A stretch of 60,714 nt of DNA from a virus (Duplodnaviria; Caudoviricetes): positions 1 through 60,714 of the IMG/VR virus record IMGVR_UViG_3300042890_000355. One strand, 5' to 3'. Below the pieces are notes generated by a model, which saw only the letters and a list, made by a program, of their open reading frames with translations, was not told the origin of the DNA and made no database searches. Below are positions 1-51,716 of the stretch, one piece after another (positions within the stretch are counted from its first letter, which is position 1; each line of letters opens with the position of its first letter). Made by a program: the position numbers and the translations under genes.

Positions 1-1622
1 CCTGCTATTGTAGTTGGAGTAGTTGTTACACTTGCCGTAGTAGTAGGTGTAGTTGTTACTTCTCCCGTTTTAGTAGACGTTGCTTTATTAATTTCAGCAT
101 TAGCCATACTAATGGCTGCATTAATAGTTAACTGGTCAAGCGGTTTACCTGCCAAAGCTCCTGAAATTACATTTCTAATTGCGTTTTGTTGAGAGCCAGT
201 AAGAGTTGAGTAGCCCTCAACATTTCCAAGCAACGCATCGGTAGCACCAGAAATTCCTCCAGTAGTAGCACCTGCAAGTACAGATTCAGTTAAATCTGTA
301 CCAGTTACTACGCCTCTAACTAATCCAGAAGCAGCACCTTGGAATGTCTTAGCTAACATTCCTGTACTGTCAATAGAATTTAGCTGATTAGTAATATCAG
401 CCAATCCTGCTGAACTAAGAACTTGTCCACCTAAATATGACGCAAGCATATTCTTAGCTGCTGTGCCTGCATCGGCACCTGACAAAACTGACACAGCAAA
501 GTTGGTGGCCAACTGTGCAGGCAAAGACATACCAGCCGTAGCTACAGCAAGACCAACCTGACCAATAGGCCCAAGATCGGTCATTATTTTAGCTAAGTCA
601 TTACTTTCTACTCTTTGTGTGTAAAAGATAGGAAGACCAGTGTTAGGGTCTATGCTAATTTTGTACTCTGTGCCATCGCCACCTGTAGCGGTATAACCAA
701 AAGTTCCTGAACCATCACCAACAGCTTGACCTGTTGTTTTGTTAATAATTCCTGTACCAATTACGCCAGTAGTAACAAGACTTTGTTGTTGATTTTCACC
801 ATCACCTGAAGTAACTGTTTTTATACCTGCAATTTCCGATGCAGTCAGTGGAGTCCAAGTACCTGTTGAATTATCCCATTTTGAAAATTCACCAGTTGGA
901 TTTCCATTTTGATCGTATTCAACTTTGACATTTACATCACCAGTAATATTGCCTAGACCTAGTTGATTAATATTTGTAATGCCATATTTATTTAAGGAAG
1001 CGGCCATGTCTAAGGCAACTTGATCTTTGTTTGAAATAGTATTTGTGCCCAGAATCCTTGCGCCAGTAGCAGCATCAAATCCAATATTTGCACCTGATCC
1101 GGCTGTAAAAGCACCGCCAGTCCAATACCTATCCGTTCCTAAAGCATTGGTTATAGAATTAATTTGGTTAGTTAAATTACTTAACTGTGTAGCATCAAAT
1201 GTTTGACCATCGTTATATGTTGCTGTCCAACTGGTTGTTGGGGTAGTAGTTACTGTTGGTGAAGTTGTTACTGTTGGTGAAGTTGTTACTGTTGGTAGTG
1301 TAGTAACAGTAGTTGAAACTGTTGGTTGTGTTGTAACGGTAGGCCCAACAGTTGGGATAGTTGCAATACCAGTTGTATCTACAACATTTGTACCGCCAGT
1401 TGTAGGTAATCCAGTAATTCCACCAGAAGCTGGTGCGGTATAAGTGTTGTAATAGTTAGTTACTTGACTGGTGTCAATATCGTATCTATTGGCAATCATG
1501 TCAGCTAAACCAGTGTTAGCTTCCAACCCTCCAATACCTTGTACTGCGGCAGCAACTTCATCTGCCGTAGCAGTAGGATTCTGGTCAAACCACCAGTCAA
1601 CTTGTTCTTGTGTTACTGCCAT
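1..1622 (-). CDS. Large Thr/Gly-rich virion protein, 3'-truncated by window edge (not in ORF track)
   Basis: ATG at 1622 (MAVTQEQVDWWFDQNP...) directly after the 1632 stop; frame read as open to the window start; PTVTT(S/T) repeats. Confidence 0.8.
   Translation of the reverse strand, partial: MAVTQEQVDWWFDQNPTATADEVAAAVQGIGGLEANTGLADMIANRYDIDTSQVTNYYNTYTAPASGGITGLPTTGGTNVVDTTGIATIPTVGPTVTTQPTVSTTVTTLPTVTTSPTVTTSPTVTTTPTTSWTATYNDGQTFDATQLSNLTNQINSITNALGTDRYWTGGAFTAGSGANIGFDAATGARILGTNTISNKDQVALDMAASLNKYGITNINQLGLGNITGDVNVKVEYDQNGNPTGEFSKWDNSTGTWTPLTASEIAGIKTVTSGDGENQQQSLVTTGVIGTGIINKTTGQAVGDGSGTFGYTATGGDGTEYKISIDPNTGLPIFYTQRVESNDLAKIMTDLGPIGQVGLAVATAGMSLPAQLATNFAVSVLSGADAGTAAKNMLASYLGGQVLSSAGLADITNQLNSIDSTGMLAKTFQGAASGLVRGVVTGTDLTESVLAGATTGGISGATDALLGNVEGYSTLTGSQQNAIRNVISGALAGKPLDQLTINAAISMANAEINKATSTKTGEVTTTPTTTASVTTTPTTIA
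1249..1296. repeat. 18-bp tandem repeat (about 2.7 copies) encoding PTVTTS
   Basis: GTTACTGTTGGTGAAGTT at 1249 and 1267, partial copy at 1285. Confidence 0.85.
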
Positions 1623-2303: not shown

Positions 2304-4387
2304 CGTCTGCCGTCCGGTCTGATGTCAATACGGGTAGAGCCAAGCTGCCATGCAGTTCCTAGATTGCTAGAGCTTACCTTGAGGATAAGTTGACGGCCAC
2401 GCACTCGTGTGTTGACTTGACCCGTAAAACCTTCAGTTACCGTATAGGACGCACCTGTTAACTTGCTAACCCCAGCCGTAACTGCCGTGCCCGTGCCCGA
2501 ACCCGAGTTCTGCATAGGATACAAAGTGTACGTAACTTGCGGAGTTGGAGATGCGTCAGAGCCTGAGAACGTCAAGTCAGGGAGCATCCTCCAGACAAAG
2601 CCTAAATGCTCACCATCTTCAATGTCAAACTCAGCAGAGGAGATGTAAGCTTCAATACCAGATGGCGTACCAGTCTCGTTATTGTCTAAGCCAAACTCTT
2701 GATTGACCAAGTTGTAGTTGTATGTAGCAGCAATAGGGAAGTCCCTTAGACCAGAGTCCAGCCAAGCTGTTCGCTCCATCGTGCCGTAGTACCAAACTTT
2801 CTCAAGGTAGTTGTACACAACATAACGGTTAGCAACTAGACTTCCAGCCGCGCAGTAGAACCACCATACTTCATTGAAACCCTCGTTAGTACTGGCAAAC
2901 ACTTGCTGGTTCTGCTGAAGGTTAATGTCTTGATAGATGTACCTACGCAGGTCACAGCTAAGTGTTTGTAACCGACCATCGTACAGATAGAACTTATCCA
3001 CACCCATCCAGTACACAACACCAGAAGCCTGAGCCGCCGCATTCTGACCCAAGATGGAGATGTTATCTCCCATCAACTGGCTAGACCAGACTACGGGTGG
3101 GCCAATGTATTGGAGAGAATAGATGGCTGAGTCAGTCCACACTAAAATCTCTTGACGGGTTTGAACGGCGGTCACAATGCTAGAGCCGTGGGACAGAGTA
3201 ACACTACCCGCTTGATTGGTAGCAGAAGGTGTCCAATTGACCACAGACTCCTGATCTGACCAACGAATTAACATGGGGTTTTGAATGGTTGAGCCGTAAT
3301 CATTACAGCCAAACGCAAATACAAACCGGCTAATGTCAGATACAAATAGGTAATTCTGAATGATTGGAACGTCAGAAGCGTTTGCTAAGCTGGTAACGGG
3401 TATACCATTAGGCATGATGTAGTGATCGCCAGACTGGGTTCCAGTCGTTGTAATAGCCGCGCCGCCCACAGTTGCCGCTAGGTTAAATGTATTACCACTG
3501 GCGTTAATGACGTAGTAAATCGTTCCGGGAGACAAACCAGTTGGCAGGGCGGCAGGATAGCCACTGTTTGTAAAAATGACTGGAGCGCCATTTGGCAAGC
3601 TATAAGCGGCAGTAACTACCGCAGGAGAAGCTATAGTAATTGTAGCTATGGTAGGGTCTACGCCATAACCAGCATCCCAGTAATAGATTGGGCCACCACG
3701 GAAACCGTAAACTAAGTCTTCACCAAAGTTGTTTTGGCTCCACAAACGTAGAGCAGAAGTAGATGTACCGCCAAAGCCCCAAACCCCTGCACCCCATGTA
3801 CCAGCACCCCAGCCAGCTAGTGGAATCTCGTATGGATCACCTACGTTAATCTGATAGATAGCATTTACATCTGTACCACCGCCAGCCGCCACTGTTGAAG
3901 TAGCCGCAGTAGCAGCCACGATTGTGTAAGTATTGGCATCAATAACGGTAACCTGATATTCGCCATTTAAATCAAGACCGCCTACAGGAGCTACGTTGCT
4001 AAAGGTTACAAAGTCATTGGTTACTGCGCCATGGGCTGTATCTGTAACGGTAACTAAAGTGAGTAGATTGGTTGTGGAAAACGGATTACTTAAGATAGCC
4101 GCCGCACGAATAGGCGTGATGTCGTTGTAGTTACCACCCAACTCAAGGTAGAACTTAAGGTTAGTACCCACTCCAATTAGGTTTAAGTTGTCTAGGGTGA
4201 TCCAGTTCCACAATGACCGGCACAGACCTTGGAATGTGGACACGGAAATACGTGCCCAGCCACCAATCTTCTCAGGCGTACCCTGACGAAACCGCACTTT
4301 ATCGGACTCATACCACCCACCTTCGTTGGTATAACGGGTGTTCTCCCGGTTAACTCCCGGCTTCAGTACAAGTTTTTTAAGCGCCAT
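2300..4387 (-). CDS. Tail tubular/stabilisation protein (P22 gp10 / T7 gp12-like nozzle)
   Basis: 695 aa beta-rich protein; LIRWSDQE motif and C-terminal RVRGRQ...IRPDGRR typical of podovirus nozzle proteins; position in tail module. Confidence 0.7.
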   Translation of the reverse strand: MALKKLVLKPGVNRENTRYTNEGGWYESDKVRFRQGTPEKIGGWARISVSTFQGLCRSLWNWITLDNLNLIGVGTNLKFYLELGGNYNDITPIRAAAILSNPFSTTNLLTLVTVTDTAHGAVTNDFVTFSNVAPVGGLDLNGEYQVTVIDANTYTIVAATAATSTVAAGGGTDVNAIYQINVGDPYEIPLAGWGAGTWGAGVWGFGGTSTSALRLWSQNNFGEDLVYGFRGGPIYYWDAGYGVDPTIATITIASPAVVTAAYSLPNGAPVIFTNSGYPAALPTGLSPGTIYYVINASGNTFNLAATVGGAAITTTGTQSGDHYIMPNGIPVTSLANASDVPIIQNYLFVSDISRFVFAFGCNDYGSTIQNPMLIRWSDQESVVNWTPSATNQAGSVTLSHGSSIVTAVQTRQEILVWTDSAIYSLQYIGPPVVWSSQLMGDNISILGQNAAAQASGVVYWMGVDKFYLYDGRLQTLSCDLRRYIYQDINLQQNQQVFASTNEGFNEVWWFYCAAGSLVANRYVVYNYLEKVWYYGTMERTAWLDSGLRDFPIAATYNYNLVNQEFGLDNNETGTPSGIEAYISSAEFDIEDGEHLGFVWRMLPDLTFSGSDASPTPQVTYTLYPMQNSGSGTGTAVTAGVSKLTGASYTVTEGFTGQVNTRVRGRQLILKVSSSNLGTAWQLGSTRIDIRPDGRR

Positions 4388-34004: not shown

Positions 34005-34300
34005 TCAAGGTTCCGAAAGTTTATATAAACCGGACGAATCGTCCTACCCTGTCTATCCACCTTCTTTATAACACCTATATTCACAAGCCGCTTAATTATT
34101 TTTGAAGTATTTGACATACTCATCTTTCCACGCTGGTGAGCTATGTCCTTCAAAGACGGGCTAAACCCATACCTCTTCCACCACTCATCAATAATCAAAA
34201 ACACTTCCTTCTGTACCGGTGTCATCTCTACCTCCATACACTCGTTAAACGTCATGTCACTTTTACGTGACACCATTTTCTTATTTATCTGTACTTTCAT
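34001..34300 (-). CDS. LexA-type winged-helix DNA-binding protein (no peptidase domain)
   Basis: MTPVQKEV...YGFSPSLKDIA...LVNIGVIK...RTIR. Confidence 0.8.
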   Translation of the reverse strand: MKVQINKKMVSRKSDMTFNECMEVEMTPVQKEVFLIIDEWWKRYGFSPSLKDIAHQRGKMSMSNTSKIIKRLVNIGVIKKVDRQGRTIRPVYINFRNLE

Positions 34301-34307
34301 AAATCGC

Positions 34308-34406
34308 AGAAAACTTTTAATTTTTCTAGAAAACTTTTAATTTTTCTACATCCTAGAAAACTTTTAATTTTTCTAGAAATTTTTGTAGAAAACTTTTAAT
34401 TTTTCT
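34308..34406. repeat. Cluster of four 20-bp quasi-palindromes AGAAAACTTTTAATTTTTCT
   Basis: Exact copies at 34308, 34328, 34355, 34387; further copies at 6757, 22549, 35213, 47377, 53597. Confidence 0.95.
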
Positions 34407-35130
34407 AGGCCGGGGGGTCTTCCCTAAACGCATGGGTGGGTATGCTGCCAGAAACTTTTTCTGGGGGCGGGGGTTCTTCCGAATCTGATTCTTGTGGGGA
34501 TCGTTCGGGTTGAATAGTATGTATAGGATCTCGGGACTCCGCAACGTCGTTTGGGGGGGTCGGGAGTGGGTGGGTCTCGCCCGCAAGCTCGCGCAAAAGG
34601 GTGTCCGCCTCTACAAACGTCACATCCTCCGCGCCCGCCTTCAGCATCTCACGCAACTGCCCCATGATCTTAGCCTTCGTATCCTCGCTCGACCTGATGT
34701 GACGCACCTCGCGCCTCTCGGTGAACGCAGACACCTCTGTCACTGTGCCGAGTACCTTACTCGCCTGTACCTTCGTCGCCTGTTTAGCCTCAGGGTCAAT
34801 CAGCACTTGGACAAGCGATTGGATTACCAACGACCTCAAGGCTTCAGGGGTGCGATGTTTACTCGCCTCAATCGCCAGCTTATAAGCTTCTATCTCTGCC
34901 TGAATCCTTACGTCCTTGGCTAGCTCGTATGGCTTACTCGCTAGCGTGTGTTTACTCGCGTTCGGTTTGTACGCTTTGCGGTATGCGTCAGCCTTCGTAG
35001 AACCCCTTGCGACCTCTTGGGCGAATGACTGCATCTTGGGTGTGATCGCCTTACGGGAAACGCCAAGAATGTCAGCCATTGGCACTTGCTCTAGACCTTC
35101 CTTGATCTGCTTCCTTGTGAGTGTTTTCAT
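34405..35130 (-). CDS. terS: Terminase small subunit (probable)
   Basis: TPKMQSFA...ADAYRKAY HTH, ASKVLG; upstream of terL. Confidence 0.7.
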   Translation of the reverse strand: MKTLTRKQIKEGLEQVPMADILGVSRKAITPKMQSFAQEVARGSTKADAYRKAYKPNASKHTLASKPYELAKDVRIQAEIEAYKLAIEASKHRTPEALRSLVIQSLVQVLIDPEAKQATKVQASKVLGTVTEVSAFTERREVRHIRSSEDTKAKIMGQLREMLKAGAEDVTFVEADTLLRELAGETHPLPTPPNDVAESRDPIHTIQPERSPQESDSEEPPPPEKVSGSIPTHAFREDPPA

Positions 35131-46659: not shown

Positions 46660-47119
46660 TGCTTGTCTCCTGTTATACCTGCTACGTTTTACAATATTAT
46701 TGCACAGTTCTGGCAGTTTGTGCCGTCTTGTGTAAAAAAGTGGTAGGTGGTTTCCCGTAGTACCCGTTTTGGGCATAGAGAGAGCCGCTACCTCTGAACC
46801 CCCCTCTGGTGGAGAGGAGGAACTCAGTGAGGCAGTGCTCCGAAAACGCGACTCATCTGTCCTACGTTTTCCAAGTTCGGTGGAATGCCGGATTCTCTTT
46901 CTATAAGGGTGGCGCTTTAACGGTACGCCCTGACAGCTAGTCTTACCTCCCTACGGCTCAATTGGTTAGTTACCCTCTTTCACACTGGCCACGAATCATT
47001 TGCCAGTACCGCTCGGCTCTCTTAGGAAGCGGCCCTTGACTGCAAGGGTAAGGTCATATCTGGGTACCGGAGATTTCTGCCGTATAAGCTAACGCGCCCT
47101 GACGGTTACTGTAGGAGGA

Positions 47120-47331
47120 GAGACTGGAACTGCTCACATGAAGCAGTGTTTCGTCAACTAAGAAAGGGCAATGTGAAGGCGCTAACCCATCACCAGTCCC
47201 AGTCTCAAAACAAAAAAGGCCGCTTACAACTGCGTCCGGTCGGAGCCTTAACTAATACCTCTCTCTACTAGGGTATTAGGTAAAGCGGAACGCATGTGTA
47301 AACGGCCTCAACTTATTGCCTCCGACAGCAA
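47120..47331 (-). ncRNA. Candidate structured leader/antisense-type RNA with terminator
   Basis: Long interrupted hairpin 47217-47308 followed by a T-tract; its bulge CTCCGAC is complementary to upstream loop GTCGGAG; second domain closed by a 13-bp stem 47120-47206. Confidence 0.55.
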
Positions 47332-47338
47332 CGAGCGG

Positions 47339-47369
47339 ATTATAACCACAACTGTTCCGGCCTTGTCAA
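47339..47369 (-). promoter_or_regulatory. Putative leftward sigma70 promoter
   Basis: Perfect TTGACA and TATAAT hexamers with an atypical 19-bp spacer; 20-bp palindrome adjacent at 47377. Confidence 0.55.
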
Positions 47370-47398
47370 CTCACGTAGAAAAATTAAAAGTTTTCTGC

Positions 47399-47429
47399 AA
47401 AAAAAAAGTGGCCTCAGTTACGAGGCCAC
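47399..47429 (-). terminator. Rho-independent terminator
   Basis: GTGGCCTC-6nt-GAGGCCAC followed by T9 on the minus strand. Confidence 0.85.
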
Positions 47430-47491
47430 CAAAGTTCATCAAAGGAAAAAAGCAACTCACAAAACAACCAGCCGTCTGGATTGATGCCATC

Positions 47492-47779
47492 TTACTCGCA
47501 GCGTTTAAGAATTTCAAGTGCTTCTTGCGCCGAATTCACTATTACCAGCATCCCACCTGTCCACTCATCAAAGAACTTCTGCTCGGCCTCGGTTAGTTTC
47601 CTAGCTGACGGTACTTTGTCCCCGTCTTTGACCTCCATAAGCACCGTATAGCCCTTGTAAGCCACTAAAAGGTCAGGGATGCCATCACCCTGCGAGATGA
47701 TCCTTACGAACGCTCCTGCGCCCCGTAATGCGTCCACGATTTTGTTCTGGTTAGCGTCGATTCTGTTGGCGTATCTCAT
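47492..47779 (-). CDS. VRR-NUC / PD-(D/E)XK endonuclease (resolvase-like)
   Basis: GIPDLLV...LMEVK...LTEAEQKF. Confidence 0.85.
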   Translation of the reverse strand: MRYANRIDANQNKIVDALRGAGAFVRIISQGDGIPDLLVAYKGYTVLMEVKDGDKVPSARKLTEAEQKFFDEWTGGMLVIVNSAQEALEILKRCE

Positions 47780-47817
47780 GGCTTCTCCTACCTGATAAAA
47801 ATATTTTAACTTACCTG

Positions 47818-47846
47818 TTGCAAAATTAAAATGTAGCAGGTATAAT
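47818..47846 (+). promoter_or_regulatory. Sigma70 promoter of the pentamer array/RAMP operon, overlapped by an inverted repeat
   Basis: TTGCAA(47818)-17bp-TATAAT(47841); TACCTGTTGCA...TGTAGCAGGTA inverted repeat 47812-47842. Confidence 0.85.
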
Positions 47847-47862
47847 CAGTTCCAACCTATCT

Positions 47863-48326
47863 GGTTTAATGTGGTCTGGCAAGTTATGGCGGGACGAGGC
47901 GGTGCCCGGTCGGGCATGGCAGGGAACTGGTAACAGTCGATAGGGAATTAGCAATAGTTCTCCTTCGAGTGTTAGGCACGGTCGGGCAAGTCTCGGCACG
48001 GTGAGGAGAGGCGGGGATAGGCAGGGTACGGCACGGAAAGGTGCGGCAGGGAGCTAGAAATAGTCGATAGGGTATTGGCAACAGTACCACTTCGAGTGTT
48101 AGAGGAATGGCTGGATGCGGTCAGGCGAGCAAAGGTCAGGTTTGGAGGGGTAAGGCAAGGGCTGTTTACAGCGGGAAGTTATTTAACAAGATAACTTTTC
48201 GGTGGTAACACCACTAGGTTGGGTCTGGTGTGGCAAGGCGAGGAATGCTTAGGAAGGGTCTGGCAAGGGCTAATGTAGCGGCTATTAGATTGGCAACAGT
48301 CTTATGGTCGATGCAAATTGTGCATC
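47863..48326 (+). ncRNA. Four-unit putative guide-RNA array: phased GG(Y/A)NN pentamer tracts each followed by hairpin handles (VIPR-like)
   Basis: Tracts 47863-47922 (12), 47975-48049 (15), 48104-48158 (11), 48217-48266 (10); 40/48 pentamers start GG and position 3 is never G; each tract ends GGCAR-GG then stem-loops, several with GNRA loops. Confidence 0.85.
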
Positions 48327-48342
48327 AATTAAAGGAAACAAA

Positions 48343-48912
48343 ATGAAATCTATTAAAGTAAAACTCTCAGGCTCATCTGCTTTACTCATGCACTCTGATC
48401 GCTTTGCGAACCCGTTAGACCCACTAACTAAGGCTCACAAAGAACTGACAGGCAAGCGCAAGAAAACTGACGATGACCATATCGCCATCGCTAGAAGTGA
48501 ATTCATTGGTGGCTGTTATTGGAATGAAGACACTGGCTTCTTTATTCCTGCACAAAACCTAGACTCATGCCTGATCGCGGCGGCTAAGCTTCAAAAGCTT
48601 GGCGTTAAATTCAAGCAGGGCGTACAGGTATTGGAAGACGAGCTACCCATCGACGGCTTTAAGTCCGTCACTCCCGAGAAGCTTTGGGAAAACCCAAAGA
48701 ACGTAGATGCCCGTGGCGTTAAGGTAGGCATGGCCAAGATCATGCGCTACCGCCCCATCTTTCGCAACTGGTCACTGTCTGCCACTGTGATGGTGAATGA
48801 AGATGTAGTTAACCTCAATGAAGTTAAGAAAGCTTTGGTTGACGCTGGCAATTTGATTGGCTTGGGTGATTACCGTCCCCGCTTTGGCCGCTTTGATGTG
48901 GAGTTTGCATGA
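48343..48912 (+). CDS. Stand-alone Cas7/RAMP-like protein (putative Vipr-type effector), 189 aa
   Basis: AAAGGA RBS and ATG 48343; beta1 IKVKLSGSSALLMH, FFIPAQNLDSCL (RAMP IPxxxLK-like), C-terminal G-loop IGLGDYRPRFGRFDV. Confidence 0.8.
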   Translation: MKSIKVKLSGSSALLMHSDRFANPLDPLTKAHKELTGKRKKTDDDHIAIARSEFIGGCYWNEDTGFFIPAQNLDSCLIAAAKLQKLGVKFKQGVQVLEDELPIDGFKSVTPEKLWENPKNVDARGVKVGMAKIMRYRPIFRNWSLSATVMVNEDVVNLNEVKKALVDAGNLIGLGDYRPRFGRFDVEFA

Positions 48913-49391
48913 GCGACAATCCAAAACTATTTCCCGCTTGGAAGCAGGCAGTTAAAACTTTATTGGACAGCGGCCTTACATACGGAAGCGTACTCAAGCG
49001 CAGTTACATTTCCGAGTTGTGTGATGTGCCAAAGCCAGTAGACATTGACGATGTTCGCAGGTATGACCTTGAAGTGCTTCGCTGCATCACAGAGATCAAA
49101 GACATTCTGCTAACAGCCCACTGCATGCTAATGGTCAGTGACCATGCAGGCAACTACATCATCATCGAGCCTGAGTCACAAACTCAACACGCTGTTGATG
49201 CAGGTGTTAAAGCAATCAGTCGAGAGATGAAGCGTATGGCTATGGGCGTGAGCTTTACCAAGACTGATTTACTCACAGACGAAGGCCGTAAGAAAAACGC
49301 AGATGCTCAGGCAAAGATCTCAAAGCTGGCCGGAATGCTAAGCATTGAGAAGCGTGAGCTTCAGCGTATATCCGACAGGAGTCAGCCATGA
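48909..49391 (+). CDS. Accessory protein coupled to the RAMP gene, function unknown
   Basis: ATGA overlap with the RAMP stop; possible winged helix (GNYIII) followed by a long helix. Confidence 0.7.
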   Translation: MSDNPKLFPAWKQAVKTLLDSGLTYGSVLKRSYISELCDVPKPVDIDDVRRYDLEVLRCITEIKDILLTAHCMLMVSDHAGNYIIIEPESQTQHAVDAGVKAISREMKRMAMGVSFTKTDLLTDEGRKKNADAQAKISKLAGMLSIEKRELQRISDRSQP

Positions 49392-50284
49392 AGTTCACAA
49401 ACAAGTTCAACTTACCTCAGACATTTGTCAATGTAATACATCGGCCAACGTACTCCAAAGGTAAGGCGCACATCTCTGCGACTGAGATCATTAACTCACC
49501 ACGAATCGTTCAGTTAAAGAAGAAACACTGGGATGACATTGAGCAAGACGCAAGCGAGATGGTGTGGTCACTCTTTGGTTCTGCTGTTCACAACATCTTG
49601 GAACACGGCAAAGATAAGAACCACATTGTTGAAGAGAGACTGCACCTTGAGTATGAAGGATGGCATATCTCTGGTGCGATTGACTTACAAGAGTTAGAGC
49701 CTAATGGAACGATGACTGTCAGTGATTACAAAGTTACTGGCGCATGGGCAGTGATGAATGAGAAGGATGACTGGCACCGCCAATTAAATATTTATGGTTG
49801 GATGGTGGAGAAGGTTAAGAAAGTACCAGTAGGTAAGCTTCAGATCATTGCCATCATTCGTGACTGGTCTGCCCGCGATGCCGCATCTAAAGAAGGCTAC
49901 CCTCAGTCACCAGTGGCTACGATTGATATTCCTCTGTGGACATTTGAAGAGCGTGAAGCGTTTATCACGAAACGAATCTACGACCACGGCACAGCACTCT
50001 TTGAGATGGAGACAGATGGCGAGATGCCTGACTGCACACCCGAAGAAATGTGGGAGAAGAAAACTTCCTATGCTTTAAAGAAGGATGGGAACGTGAGAGC
50101 AAAGAGTGTTCACGAGACACTTGAGGATGCTGAGAAAGCACTGGCTAAGTCCGAAGAGACAGCCAAGAAGAACGAGAAGTTTGTTATCGAAGTAAGACAA
50201 GGAGAAAGAACACGATGCCGCAGCTACTGCCAAGTGTCACCGTTCTGCACTCAATACCAAAACTACCTAAAGGAAATGCCATGA
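49388..50284 (+). CDS. PD-(D/E)XK exonuclease, Cas4-like
   Basis: ISAT, FGSAVH, EERL, ISGAID, DYK, QLNIY; Cys cluster RCRSYCQVSPFC. Confidence 0.85.
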   Translation: MKFTNKFNLPQTFVNVIHRPTYSKGKAHISATEIINSPRIVQLKKKHWDDIEQDASEMVWSLFGSAVHNILEHGKDKNHIVEERLHLEYEGWHISGAIDLQELEPNGTMTVSDYKVTGAWAVMNEKDDWHRQLNIYGWMVEKVKKVPVGKLQIIAIIRDWSARDAASKEGYPQSPVATIDIPLWTFEEREAFITKRIYDHGTALFEMETDGEMPDCTPEEMWEKKTSYALKKDGNVRAKSVHETLEDAEKALAKSEETAKKNEKFVIEVRQGERTRCRSYCQVSPFCTQYQNYLKEMP

Positions 50285-50529
50285 AGCCAGTTCAACTATC
50301 CCTTACTCAGCAAAGCGCAGAACTAATTGTTCGTGCTTTGATTGAGATGCCATTTAAACAAGTGAATCAATTGATCCACTACATAGATCATGAGATTGCT
50401 ATCTCTCAACAACAGATGCCTACCAATACAGTAACTGTTGCACAGAAAGTTACTACGCCATTCCCAAAGTACGGCTTGAAGAAAGACGGTACTCCAAAGA
50501 AACGTGCTGGTCGTCCAGCTAAGAAGTGA
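50281..50529 (+). CDS. Small protein with basic C-terminus
   Basis: Start MKPVQL; YGLKKDGTPKKRAGRP. Confidence 0.65.
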   Translation: MKPVQLSLTQQSAELIVRALIEMPFKQVNQLIHYIDHEIAISQQQMPTNTVTVAQKVTTPFPKYGLKKDGTPKKRAGRPAKK

Positions 50530-51017: not shown

Positions 51018-51716
51018 ATGTCAGTCCATAAAAAGCTAATGCAAGCGAGGGTCAAGCTTCAATCCACAGAGATGAAGAAGTCTGGCCTCAATAAGTTTGC
51101 CGGCTATTCATACTTTGAGTTGAGTGACTTTATCCCTCACGTTCAGACCATCTTCAACGACCTTGGCCTGTGCGGTGTCGTGACGTTTAACACTGAGTAT
51201 GCACAGCTATGTATCACCGACGTAGATGACGGCACAGTCATTGTGATTACTAGCCCAATGGCCGAGGCCAACCTCAAGGGAGCACACCCCATACAAAATT
51301 TGGGCGCAGTTTTGAGCTACCAACGGAGGTACCTCTGGATGGCCGCTTTGGAGCTAGTCGAGGGGGATCCCATAGATTCAGCGCCCCCTGTAGAAGCGCC
51401 AAAGCCCGAACCTAAACCAGAACCTAAACCAGAGCCAGTTAAGAAGACACCAGTTCCTTTGAAGATGGAAGGCCGCGACGATAAGTCTTGGCACCTCATC
51501 GTAGAGAAGGAACCCGGAGACTCATCAGAATCTTGGATCACAGCAGTAGTAGACATCACTAAGATGGGTCTAGCAGAGACTCATAACGAAGCTGAAGTGA
51601 TGAAGCTGTTTACCAACAACAGAATTATCTTTGATCGTCTGAAGTTAGAAGACGTTGAGAGATATACCGCGCTCATGGGCGCATTCAAAACCCGTAAAGA
51701 AGAACTGAAAGGATAA
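51018..51716 (+). CDS. ERF-family single-strand annealing protein
   Basis: KKSGLNKFAGYSYFEL, QNLGAVLSYQRRY. Confidence 0.85.
   Translation: MSVHKKLMQARVKLQSTEMKKSGLNKFAGYSYFELSDFIPHVQTIFNDLGLCGVVTFNTEYAQLCITDVDDGTVIVITSPMAEANLKGAHPIQNLGAVLSYQRRYLWMAALELVEGDPIDSAPPVEAPKPEPKPEPKPEPVKKTPVPLKMEGRDDKSWHLIVEKEPGDSSESWITAVVDITKMGLAETHNEAEVMKLFTNNRIIFDRLKLEDVERYTALMGAFKTRKEELKG

What the first reader, a model, noticed from the sequence alone, without database searches (positions are those of the whole stretch)
47818..48912. Minimal phage RNA-guided system: GG(Y/A)NN pentamer guide array plus stand-alone Cas7/RAMP-like gene
Seen: a consensus sigma70 promoter is followed by about 460 nt of non-coding sequence made of four units, then a 189-aa gene. 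Each unit is a phased 5-nt tract plus hairpins. T1: GGTTT AATGT GGTCT GGCAA GTTAT GGCGG GACGA GGCGG TGCCC GGTCG GGCAT GGCAG. T2: GGCAC GGTCG GGCAA GTCTC GGCAC GGTGA GGAGA GGCGG GGATA GGCAG GGTAC GGCAC GGAAA GGTGC GGCAG. T3: GGAAT GGCTG GATGC GGTCA GGCGA GCAAA GGTCA GGTTT GGAGG GGTAA GGCAA. T4: GGTTG GGTCT GGTGT GGCAA GGCGA GGAAT GCTTA GGAAG GGTCT GGCAA. 40/48 pentamers begin GG, position 3 is never G (40 pyrimidine, 8 A), and positions 4-5 vary freely. Known: RAMP/Cas7 proteins have an N-terminal beta1, an IPxxxL motif and a C-terminal G-rich loop, all present here, and they polymerise along guide RNA with fixed periodicity. Inference: one protomer binds each pentamer, holds the GGY and displays the NN for non-contiguous target pairing. 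There is no cas1/2/3/5/6 and no repeat-spacer array. From memory this matches recently reported viral VIPR systems; I cannot verify that assignment here.
Basis: partly seen in the sequence, partly recalled or inferred. Interest (0 to 1): 0.97.

Follow-up and report, generated by a model that had tools for sequence, protein, structure and literature searches.

The report
Phage VIPR RNA-guided system, new member
This lake-water phage carries a complete VIPR system (four guide RNAs made of GG-pentamer repeats, a small Cas7-like protein and its accessory gene), a kind of RNA-guided gene silencer first described in 2026, so it is a real but already known type of system.

Summary
Four phased GG-pentamer tracts, each followed by a structured tail, lie at 47863-48330. 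A 10/12 sigma-70 promoter precedes them and a 189-aa gene follows.

The protein matches the solved SUSP1 Vipr protein (PDB 36pp) over its full length (E 7e-47). It keeps the residues that contact the guide RNA. Its model (pLDDT 91.6) finds Cas7/Csm3 folds. The downstream gene is homologous to the accessory gene beside SUSP1 vipr.

Of 59 related loci, 57 carry pentamer tracts next to the gene; the other two are cut at the contig end. VIPR is in print as two bioRxiv preprints of 2026. This locus is therefore a new member of a known kind, most likely type II.

- Under the published 1-nt-skip rule, guide 1 matches 22/24 positions in 17 metagenome contigs.
- Guide 3 matches 20/22 positions in Enc34-type SSB genes.
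- Guide 2's first 8 units match the catalytic-serine codons of large serine recombinases.
- There are no self-targets.
- The array uses three tail classes.
- Pentamer position 3 tolerates A (GGH rather than GGY).

Transcription, RNP formation and silencing were not tested here.

The parts
47818..47846 (+). sigma-70-type promoter TTGCAA-17-TATAAT of the array/vipr operon
   Evidence: 10 of 12 consensus matches. It is the only + strand promoter-like site in 47400-50400. A consensus match alone does not prove function.
47863..47974 (+). vrRNA 1: guide tract 47863-47922 (12 pentamers, the first two overlapping a conserved 5' leader) plus class A tail 47923-47974
   Evidence: Under the 1-nt-skip rule, units 2-12 match 22 of 22 positions (22 of 24 counting unit 1) in 17 of 17 metagenome hits.
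47975..48103 (+). vrRNA 2: guide tract 47975-48049 (15 pentamers) plus class A tail 48050-48102
   Evidence: Units 1-8 match the TRKST[DE][DE]G codons of large serine recombinase genes in 120 of 120 listed IMG/VR hits. Units 9-15 do not continue that match.
48104..48216 (+). vrRNA 3: guide tract 48104-48158 (11 pentamers) plus class B tail 48159-48214
   Evidence: It matches 20 of 22 positions in Enc34-type ssDNA-binding protein genes.
48217..48330 (+). vrRNA 4: guide tract 48217-48266 (10 pentamers) plus class C tail 48267-48326, which is always the last tail before vipr in relatives
   Evidence: Only a borderline 16 of 20 match, to Cas4-domain exonuclease genes.
48343..48912 (+). vipr: 189-aa minimal RAMP (Cas7-like) protein
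   Evidence: PDB 36pp_D 'SUSP1 Vipr protein', E 7e-47, residues 1-188. 39.9% identity to phiSUSP1. AF2 model pLDDT 91.6. Foldseek top hits are type VII Cas7, Csm3 and type III-D Cas7. phrog_4652. No Pfam family.
48909..49391 (+). vap: 160-aa accessory gene, overlapping the vipr stop by 4 nt (ATGA)
   Evidence: BLASTP against the gene after SUSP1 vipr gives E 1e-7 at 20% identity. Against the LESphi2 neighbour it gives E 2e-25. It sits directly downstream of vipr in 54 of 59 related loci and elsewhere in one more, L041. phrog_5926. The model (pLDDT 88.7) has no significant PDB fold match.

Best explanation
The stretch 47818-49391 is a complete VIPR (Viral Interference Programmable Repeat) system of a lake-water phage, most likely type II.

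Proposed mechanism:
1. One promoter drives a leader that holds four vrRNAs, followed by vipr and vap.
2. Each vrRNA has 10-15 GG(C/T/A)NN pentamers and ends in a structured tail.
3. By homology with SUSP1 VIPR, Vipr protomers polymerise one per pentamer. They bury GGY and present the NN dinucleotides.
4. The filament binds double-stranded DNA whose sequence reads NNx-NNx (1-nt skip) and blocks transcription there.
5. The natural targets are genes of other phages or mobile elements.

What is shown here is homology, locus architecture, tail structure, and target matches that obey the skip rule. What is inferred is transcription and processing of the vrRNAs, filament assembly, DNA binding and silencing.
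For: Protein:
- Full-length phmmer match to PDB 36pp 'SUSP1 Vipr protein', E 7e-47.
- tblastn finds 130 phage records, including phiSUSP1 at 39.9% identity.
- The preprint names SUSP1 H17, D177, R138, W178 and R179 as guide-RNA contacts and K33 as a target-strand backbone contact; alanine at D177, R138 or K33 abolished silencing (section 5; section 6). These correspond to window H17, K33, R137, D176, Y177 and R178. H17, K33, R137, D176 and R178 are invariant in 25 homologues.
- AF2 model with pLDDT 91.6 and pTM 0.84.
- 71 PDB chains at Foldseek E <= 1e-3; those listed are Cas7-family subunits (type VII Cas7, Csm3, III-D and Cmr subunits), TM about 0.5.

Guide RNAs:
- Four phased tracts, far beyond shuffles.
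- 57 of 59 related loci have same-strand tracts within 900 nt upstream or 1800 nt downstream of the gene. phiSUSP1 has one scoring tract upstream and two downstream (the preprint reports one and three).
- 113 distinct tracts in the clade differ in their NN dinucleotides while keeping GG.

Tails:
- Class A alignment of 37 sequences: 100% of 516 cells paired, 6 covarying pairs, 78 double-change cells, 0 of 500 shuffles as high, and slid controls at 28-50% paired.
- Class C has 8 covarying pairs and class B has 10.

Accessory gene: vap is homologous to the SUSP1 and LESphi2 neighbours and is found in 55 of 59 loci.

Context: an IMG/VR virus record estimated 96% complete. No Cas1. No repeat-spacer array.

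Targets under the 1-nt-skip rule:
- T1: 17 exact metagenome hits, all encoding VLKMG[ED]GPRIR, with variation confined to the skipped wobble base.
- T3: 48 of 62 core hits encode WAQDNQFG. The two ORFs I scanned are PF10991 SSB genes. The best match is 20/22, against a shuffled-guide maximum of 17.
- No self-target: the best scores are 15/24, 19/30, 15/22 and 14/20, no better than the wrong-skip controls.
Against: - Nothing here shows that the array is transcribed, processed or bound. Contigs from four RNA libraries cover vipr-vap of relatives, and in one run parts of the array, but DNA carry-over cannot be excluded and contigs cannot show RNA ends.
- T2 as a whole reaches only 21/30 (70%), below the preprint's 80% criterion. 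No match with 3 or fewer mismatches was found in 401 genomes of one order or in 4 MAGs.
- T4 reaches only 16/20, and 10 of its 29 core hits fall in other frames or motifs (7 of them with stop codons) and look like chance.
- Position 3 is A in 7 of 40 GG units. This departs from the published GGY, whose pocket is said to exclude purines.
- The pyrimidine-pocket residues E71/M72 of SUSP1 are Q71/N72 here.
- The type assignment (II) rests on similarity to SUSP1 and on the vap homology. The preprint's tree and tables, which are supplements, were not seen.
Confidence: 0.93

Rival explanations
1. This is a VIPR system that destroys rather than silences its targets. The PD-(D/E)XK nuclease gene at 49388-50284, chained to vap by an ATGA overlap, would be an effector recruited by the filament, as proposed for the nuclease-bearing VIPR types III-V.
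For: The nuclease start overlaps the vap stop. It belongs to Pfam PDDEXK_1 (E 7.5e-8) and to the phrog_2139 exonuclease family. It lies downstream of vap in 29 of 59 related loci. The preprint says types III-V carry nuclease or helicase vaps.
Against: It is missing from 30 of 59 loci, including all the distant ones (L003, L049-L060) and SUSP1. Where it is present, an ERF annealase gene usually also lies downstream (22 loci), and in the window ERF lies at 51018-51716. That pattern is the usual phage recombination module. In several loci a gap of about 250 nt separates it from vap.
Confidence: 0.08
2. The vrRNAs regulate the phage's own genes or host genes (a timing or takeover switch) rather than competing elements.
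For: The array sits at the head of the early replication/recombination operon. The host genome is unknown, so host targets could not be excluded.
Against: No 1-nt-skip match in the window rises above the wrong-skip controls. T1 and T3 have near-perfect matches in genes of other elements, namely an unknown ORF beside a primase/helicase-like gene and Enc34-type SSB genes. The window itself lacks that SSB family and lacks resolvase. For PF10991 the tool's control genomes also gave no hit. The preprint also reports no self-targets.
Confidence: 0.04
3. The pentamer tracts are not guides but some other G-rich regulatory leader (G-quadruplex or protein-titration sites), and the protein's neighbourhood to them is incidental.
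For: The tracts are G-rich and regularly spaced. No direct RNA evidence exists for this locus.
Against: The tracts co-occur with the gene in 57 of 59 loci across 47-99% protein identity. NN positions are conserved while position 3 drifts in shared guides. Targets match only at a 1-nt skip and in codon phase. The homologous SUSP1 system was shown experimentally to use such RNAs.
Confidence: 0.01

Closest known systems
VIPR type II, Escherichia phage SUSP1 system (bioRxiv 10.64898/2026.04.26.720920 and 10.64898/2026.04.26.720927; PDB 36pp)
   Same: - A Vipr protein of the same length class: 189 aa here against 195 aa in the phiSUSP1 record, 40% identical over the full length, with the guide-contact residues kept.
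- A vap gene immediately downstream.
- vrRNAs of 10-16 GG-pentamers with a structured 3' tail.
- No cas genes or CRISPR array.
- Phage-borne.
- Targets read with a 1-nt skip in the wobble phase.
   Different: - All four vrRNAs lie upstream in one co-oriented array behind a single promoter. SUSP1 has one upstream and three downstream.
- The array uses three tail classes.
- Position 3 is A in 7 of 40 GG units here and in 187 of 995 across the clade, against 0 of 34 in SUSP1.
- The pocket residues E71/M72 are Q71/N72 here.
- The predicted targets are an unknown ORF, Enc34-type SSB genes and serine recombinase genes, rather than a satellite phage.
Pseudomonas prophage VIPR loci (LESphi2-like, OQ594955.1; the preprint's P. 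fulva clade is of this kind by its description)
   Same: The vrRNA array lies upstream of vipr-vap on the same strand, with three tracts in LESphi2. The vap is clearly homologous (E 2e-25). The tail begins with the same GGCAA GGGCT junction.
   Different: Vipr identity is 49%. I did not fetch the P. fulva locus itself, so the comparison rests on LESphi2 and on the text of the preprint. The preprint reports lysogeny-switch regulators as targets for that clade, and none was found here.
Class 1 CRISPR-Cas backbone subunits (Cas7 family: Csm3, Cmr4, type VII Cas7)
   Same: An RRM/RAMP fold with a glycine-rich loop and a thumb. Foldseek gives probability 1.00, E down to 1.9e-5 and TM about 0.5 to 8z4j_F, 6ae2_A, 8s9x_A and others. 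By homology it polymerises along a guide RNA with a fixed period.
   Different: - No repeat-spacer array, no Cas1 and no other cas genes.
- A 5-nt rather than 6-nt period.
- Only 2 of every 5 guide bases pair, and the target skips 1 in 3.
- The preprint reports DNA binding and silencing rather than cleavage.
- Sequence identity is 9-15%.
TIGR-Tas (tandem interspaced guide RNA systems).
   Same: A compact phage- or MGE-associated RNA-guided system outside CRISPR, with tandem guide arrays.
   Different: As I recall it, the protein family is different (Nop-domain, not RAMP) and the guides are contiguous dual spacers. None of this was checked here.

Membership tests
VIPR (type II) | A Vipr protein: a minimal RAMP homologous to the described Vipr family | tested here: met
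   phmmer to PDB 36pp_D 'SUSP1 Vipr protein' gives E 7e-47 over query residues 1-188. The AF2 model finds Cas7-family folds.
VIPR (type II) | Guide-binding residues of SUSP1 Vipr (H17, K33, R138, D177, W178, R179) | tested here: met
   The window has H17, K33, R137, D176, Y177 (aromatic kept) and R178. Five of these are invariant in 25 homologues. The residue list comes from the preprint, sections 5 and 6.
VIPR (type II) | Flanking vrRNAs with at least 4 (typically 9-16) YNNGG tandem repeats | tested here: met
   Four tracts of 12, 15, 11 and 10 pentamers directly upstream. The criterion comes from preprint section 20 and the Results.
VIPR (type II) | GGY conserved with a pyrimidine at position 3, and NN hypervariable | tested here: inconclusive
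   GG and the variable NN are met. Position 3 is C/T in 33 and A in 7 of 40 GG units, never G. The preprint allows 'a related consensus' in some types.
VIPR (type II) | A structurally conserved 3' tail after the repeat tract | tested here: met
   Three tail classes with compensatory changes. The pseudoknot reported for the SUSP1 clade could not be tested, because the candidate columns never vary.
VIPR (type II) | A two-gene operon, vipr plus vap, where vap is a predicted DNA-binding protein | tested here: met
   Homology to the SUSP1 and LESphi2 neighbours, and vap found in 55 of 59 loci. The DNA-binding fold itself is inconclusive: best Foldseek E 0.19, with weak hits that include winged-helix proteins.
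VIPR (type II) | No CRISPR array and no cas adaptation genes; viral genome context | tested here: met
   No repeat-spacer family in the window. No Cas1. An IMG/VR virus record estimated 96% complete. Other cas families were not searched one by one.
VIPR (type II) | Guides match foreign DNA under the 1-nt-skip rule at 80% of NN positions or more, with no self-target | tested here: met
   T1 22/24. T3 20/22. T4 16/20, borderline. T2 21/30, not met. No self-target.
VIPR (type II) | vrRNAs expressed as RNAs of about 100 nt, co-purifying with Vipr; NN-programmable dsDNA binding and silencing | not testable with these tools
   Only contigs from RNA libraries were available, and they cannot show RNA ends or exclude DNA.
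VIPR (type II) | Placement in the type II clade of the Vipr phylogeny | not tested
The assignment is inferred from 40% identity to the type II exemplar and from the vap homology.
CRISPR-Cas class 1 (Cas7 backbone) | RAMP fold | tested here: met
   Foldseek probability 1.00 to type VII Cas7, Csm3 and III-D Cas7.
CRISPR-Cas class 1 (Cas7 backbone) | A repeat-spacer CRISPR array and further cas genes (Cas1/2, Cas5, Cas6, large subunit) | tested here: not met
   No such array. No Cas1. The neighbours are vap, a PD-(D/E)XK nuclease and ERF.

The most novel reading that the evidence does not exclude
This freshwater clade may run VIPR as a combinatorial cassette system with a relaxed code.
- Guide modules and three interchangeable tail classes appear to recombine independently. 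The same T3 guide carries a class B tail here and a class C tail in L011.
- T2 looks like a fusion of two guides joined at a shared GGCGG unit.
- Position 3 accepts A (GGH).
- The guides are aimed at the most conserved codons of whole gene families: the serine-recombinase catalytic motif, Enc34-type SSB genes and Cas4-like exonuclease genes. One guide could then silence many diverged competitors, because the skipped base falls on the wobble position.

Unit-level recombination would then be a primitive way of generating new specificities.
Probability: 0.25. Interest if true: 0.6.

Novelty: new member of a known kind. Interest (0 to 1): 0.4.

Why it matters
VIPR is a very recent discovery, proposed as an ancestor of the CRISPR backbone proteins and as a new logic for programmable DNA recognition. 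This locus adds an uncultivated lake-water phage lineage with dozens of relatives. It also gives concrete, testable guide-target pairs outside E. coli and Pseudomonas: an unknown ORF beside a primase/helicase-like gene, Enc34-type SSB genes, and serine-recombinase genes. Two further features, the tolerance of A at position 3 and the three tail classes in one array, could inform the rules for engineering vrRNAs. None of this changes the concept.

Tried and rejected
Annotation searches that gave nothing useful
- Rfam scan of 47000-49000 at E <= 1: only three sub-threshold chance hits outside the array, and no hammerhead or other family in the array.
- Pfam on the protein: no family.
- megablast of 47780-49400 against the phage collection: no match.

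Target searches that found nothing
- T2 units 1-10 in IMG/VR: 0 hits.
- T4 units 1-9 in IMG/VR: 0 hits.
- T1 units 3-12 in IMG/VR: 0 hits. The same pattern gave 17 hits in metagenome contigs.
- T2 full length with 3 or fewer mismatches: 0 of 4 MAGs and 0 of 401 genomes of the order of G001.
- A mismatch-tolerant scan of 242 loci (2.0 Mb) showed nothing above the shuffled-guide null for T1 (16/20), T4 (16/20) or the T2 3' half (14/16).

T4's candidate target
The N-terminus of Cas4-domain exonucleases (phrog_1990) accounts for 19 of 29 core hits. It reaches only 16/20, with both flanking units mismatched, so I keep it only as a lead.

T2
The serine-recombinase match covers units 1-8 only. I considered and could not confirm that T2 is a chimera of two guides.

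RNA evidence
Contigs of four RNA libraries cover relatives' vipr-vap, and in X15 parts of the array, at 90-99% identity. Contigs cannot show RNA ends and DNA may be present, so I draw no conclusion on transcription.

Other checks
- vap fold: Foldseek against the PDB gives no hit at E <= 0.001. The weak hits include winged-helix proteins.
- A strict promoter regex matched upstream of only 10 of 50 relatives. I draw no conclusion on promoter conservation.
- I tried to link A at position 3 to the pocket change E71/M72 to Q71/N72. LESphi2 and Medea1 also have Q-N, yet LESphi2-like arrays have only 2 A in 67 units. That link is rejected.
- PF10991 absence in the window: the tool's control genomes also gave no hit, so this is weak evidence.

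Papers
- 10.64898/2026.04.26.720920: I read the outline and abstract, the Results (section 4, both parts), Methods sections 18, 20, 26 and 27, and 12 passages from a term search.
- 10.64898/2026.04.26.720927: I read the outline and abstract and sections 5 and 6.
- The supplements of both are closed and I did not ask for them. Tables S2-S3 and data S3-S4 could show whether this clade is among the 664 loci, which type it has, and whether similar targets are already listed.
- The term search in the first preprint's main text found 0 occurrences of 'recombinase', 'integrase' and 'freshwater'.
- The other nine papers listed were seen only as a search listing.
Full report
**Observation.**
After a TTGCAA-17-TATAAT promoter at 47818-47846 (10 of 12 consensus positions) come four tracts of phased pentamers at 47863-47922, 47975-48049, 48104-48158 and 48217-48266. 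Each is followed by 52-64 nt of hairpin-rich sequence. A 189-aa ORF follows at 48343-48912.

40 of 48 pentamers start with GG. Position 3 is C 21, T 19, A 8 and never G. Positions 4-5 use all 16 dinucleotides.

A phase-aware scan of the whole window on both strands found tracts scoring 10 or more only here. 2000 composition-matched shuffles of the array reached at most 12, against the observed 27, 15 and 14. The only ORFs of 40 aa or more across the tracts are two on the minus strand (57 and 68 aa); I take them as not genes. No + strand terminator separates the array from the gene.

**What the protein is.**
Pfam finds nothing. PHROGs gives phrog_4652, function unknown. Against PDB sequences the single hit is 36pp chain D, 'SUSP1 Vipr protein', E 7e-47 over residues 1-188. 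tblastn finds the gene in 130 phage records, mostly Felixounavirus-like coliphages including phiSUSP1 (39.9% identity). The closest are Pseudomonas phages Medea1 (59%) and LESphi2 (49%).

The cryo-EM preprint (section 5) names H17, D177, R138, W178 and R179 as the GG-holding residues. Its section 6 names K33 as a target-strand backbone contact. Alanine at D177, R138 or K33 abolished silencing. In the alignment these are H17, K33, R137, D176, Y177 and R178 in the window protein. Five of them are invariant in 25 homologues. The pyrimidine-pocket residues E71/M72 are Q71/N72 here.

An AlphaFold2 model built on that alignment has pLDDT 91.6 and pTM 0.84. Foldseek against the PDB returns 71 chains at E <= 1e-3. 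The best are type VII Cas7, Csm3 and type III-D Cas7, with probability 1.00 and TM about 0.5. That fold library ends on 8 April 2026 and returned no Vipr entry among the listed matches, so this is an independent confirmation of the RAMP fold.

**What is known.**
A literature search found two bioRxiv preprints of 2026.

The first is 10.64898/2026.04.26.720920. I read its Results and four Methods sections. It reports the following:
- VIPR systems consist of a minimal RAMP (Vipr), usually one accessory gene (vap), and vrRNAs of 9-16 YNNGG repeats followed by an invariant structured tail.
- They are mostly phage-borne.
- Each NN pairs with the target and one target base is skipped between pairs.
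- Targets lie in competing phages and satellites, with the skipped base mostly at the codon wobble position.
- There are no self-targets.
- The outcome is transcriptional silencing, and vap1 enhances protection.
- There are seven types. Type II is exemplified by SUSP1 and a P. fulva prophage.

The second is 10.64898/2026.04.26.720927, sections 5 and 6. It shows one protomer per repeat in a helical filament and a gapped R-loop.

**Locus comparison.**
In phiSUSP1 the homologous gene has 449 nt of non-coding DNA upstream and 531 nt downstream of the next gene. My scanner finds one tract upstream and two scoring tracts downstream; the preprint reports one upstream and three downstream. LESphi2 has three tracts upstream, as here.

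I fetched 6 MAG loci and 50 IMG/VR loci encoding relatives at 47-99% identity. With the three phage records that makes 59 loci. Of these, 57 have same-strand tracts within 900 nt upstream or 1800 nt downstream. The two exceptions (L005, L007) have fewer than 100 nt of upstream DNA because the contig ends there. Only one locus, L041, shows tracts elsewhere, and it turned out to hold a second, divergent vipr-vap pair.

The 160-aa gene at 48909-49391 overlaps the vipr stop. It is homologous to the gene after SUSP1 vipr (E 1e-7) and after LESphi2 vipr (E 2e-25). tblastn finds it in 55 of 59 loci. Its model (pLDDT 88.7) is an N-terminal helix-helix-helix-hairpin unit followed by two long helices. 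It has no significant PDB match; the weak hits include winged-helix proteins.

The PD-(D/E)XK nuclease gene that follows is found in 29 of 59 loci, and an ERF gene in 22 of 59; in the window the ERF gene lies further downstream. I read the nuclease as the phage's recombination module, not as a VIPR part. The window has no Cas1 and no repeat-spacer array. It is an IMG/VR virus record estimated 96% complete.

**The vrRNAs.**
Across the clade I listed 113 distinct tracts. Near-identical Vipr proteins (99%, L011 and L012) carry different sets and numbers of guides. Some guides are shared. Window T2 recurs in L012 and L024. Window T3 recurs in L011, with changes at position 3 and identical NN, and with a different tail class. 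This is what selection on the NN would give.

The tails fall into three classes:
- Class A (T1, T2), 37 distinct sequences. A 4-bp stem with a GNRA-type loop, an invariant CGA/UCG pairing and a 7-bp variable hairpin are paired in 100% of 516 cells. There are 6 covarying pairs and 78 double-change cells, with none of 500 shuffles as high and slid controls at 28-50%.
- Class C (T4; always the last tail before vipr), 20 sequences. Three hairpins with 8 covarying pairs.
- Class B (T3), 36 sequences. A central hairpin with 10 covarying pairs. The invariant flanks can pair locally or at long range, and I cannot tell which.

Position 3 is A in 187 of 995 GG units in this clade. It is A in 0 of 34 units in SUSP1 and in 2 of 67 in LESphi2-like arrays.

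**Targets.**
I converted each guide to an NNx pattern, as in the preprint's Methods. The window has no match better than the wrong-skip controls.

- T1. Units 3-12 gave no IMG/VR hit but 17 exact hits in metagenome contigs. All 17 encode VLKMG[ED]GPRIR in the frame that puts the skipped base at the wobble position. The DNA differs among them at the skipped bases. Unit 2 also matches, giving 22 of 24. The ORF is 147 aa with no Pfam or PHROG family. In L281 it lies beside a primase/helicase-like gene.
- T3. Units 1-10 have one exact IMG/VR hit. The 8-unit core has 62 hits, of which 48 encode WAQDNQFG. The two ORFs I scanned are Enc34-type ssDNA-binding proteins, PF10991. The best match is 20 of 22, against a maximum of 17 for ten shuffled-unit guides over the same 2.0 Mb. 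The other 14 of the 62 hits are other motifs or frames with stop codons, which gives a measure of the chance background.
- T2. All 120 encode TRKST[DE][DE]G. In the ORF I scanned (L091) this is the catalytic-serine region of a large serine recombinase with Resolvase and Recombinase domains. Units 9-15 match at most 5 of 14 positions there, so the whole guide reaches 21/30. Relatives' guides that share this 5' part do continue along the recombinase codons; for example, L022 reads on as L-D-M. The 3' part of T2 resembles a different guide in L048. T2 may therefore be a fusion at a shared GGCGG unit. This is inference.
- T4. Units 2-9 gave 29 hits. 19 of them encode LV[KN]DIYSL at the N-terminus of Cas4-domain exonucleases. 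The flanking units mismatch, giving 16/20.

The window itself lacks resolvase. No Enc34 SSB was found either, though that search's controls were silent.

**Habitat and expression.**
The stretch is held at 81-100% of its sampled words by 14 lake, freshwater and river DNA runs from 11 studies. Ten of these runs may be its own source. Contigs from four RNA libraries cover relatives' vipr-vap, and in one run parts of a variant array. This cannot show transcription.

**Verdict.**
It is a new member, most likely type II, of a kind published in 2026, with modest variant features. The mechanism is inferred by homology. The target matches obtained here are independent support for the 1-nt-skip code in a new lineage.

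Noticed in passing
L041:280-4028: This IMG/VR contig carries two complete VIPR systems head to head. One is vipr 1307-750 and vap 735-280 on the minus strand, with four tracts. The other is vipr 3001-3564 and vap 3567-4028 on the plus strand, with three tracts. The two Vipr proteins are each about 77% identical to the window's.
   Followed up: partly
window 47975-48049: Guide T2 looks like a fusion of two guides. Units 1-8 equal the 5' part of guides in L021, L017 and L027, which continue along serine-recombinase codons. Units 8-15 resemble guide 2 of L048. The join is at a GGCGG unit. The same fused guide occurs in L012 and L024.
   Followed up: partly
window 47863-48266 and loci L011-L048: Pentamer position 3 is A in about 19% of GG units in this clade (187 of 995), but in 0 of 34 units in SUSP1 and 2 of 67 in LESphi2-like arrays. 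G is almost never seen. The code here is GGH rather than GGY.
   Followed up: partly
window 49388-50284 and 51018-51716: A Cas4-like PD-(D/E)XK exonuclease is chained to vap by an ATGA overlap, and an ERF-family annealase lies further downstream. In relatives the nuclease is usually accompanied by a downstream ERF gene. I read it as a recombination module, not a VIPR component.
   Followed up: partly
window 34295-34407: Four copies of an AT-rich direct repeat of about 30 nt, spaced 20-32 nt apart. They look like iterons or operators.
   Followed up: no
window 1218-1337: A run of 18-nt-period direct repeats, probably a coding repeat in a structural gene.
   Followed up: no
window 47492-47779 (minus strand): A 95-aa gene divergent from the array promoter, with weak PHROG matches to endonuclease and Holliday-junction-resolvase families. 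It is found upstream of the array in 20 of 59 related loci.
   Followed up: no
L281:10821-12441: The predicted T1 target is a 147-aa ORF with no known family. It sits next to a primase/helicase-like gene on uncultivated contigs. The element could be a phage or a satellite.
   Followed up: partly
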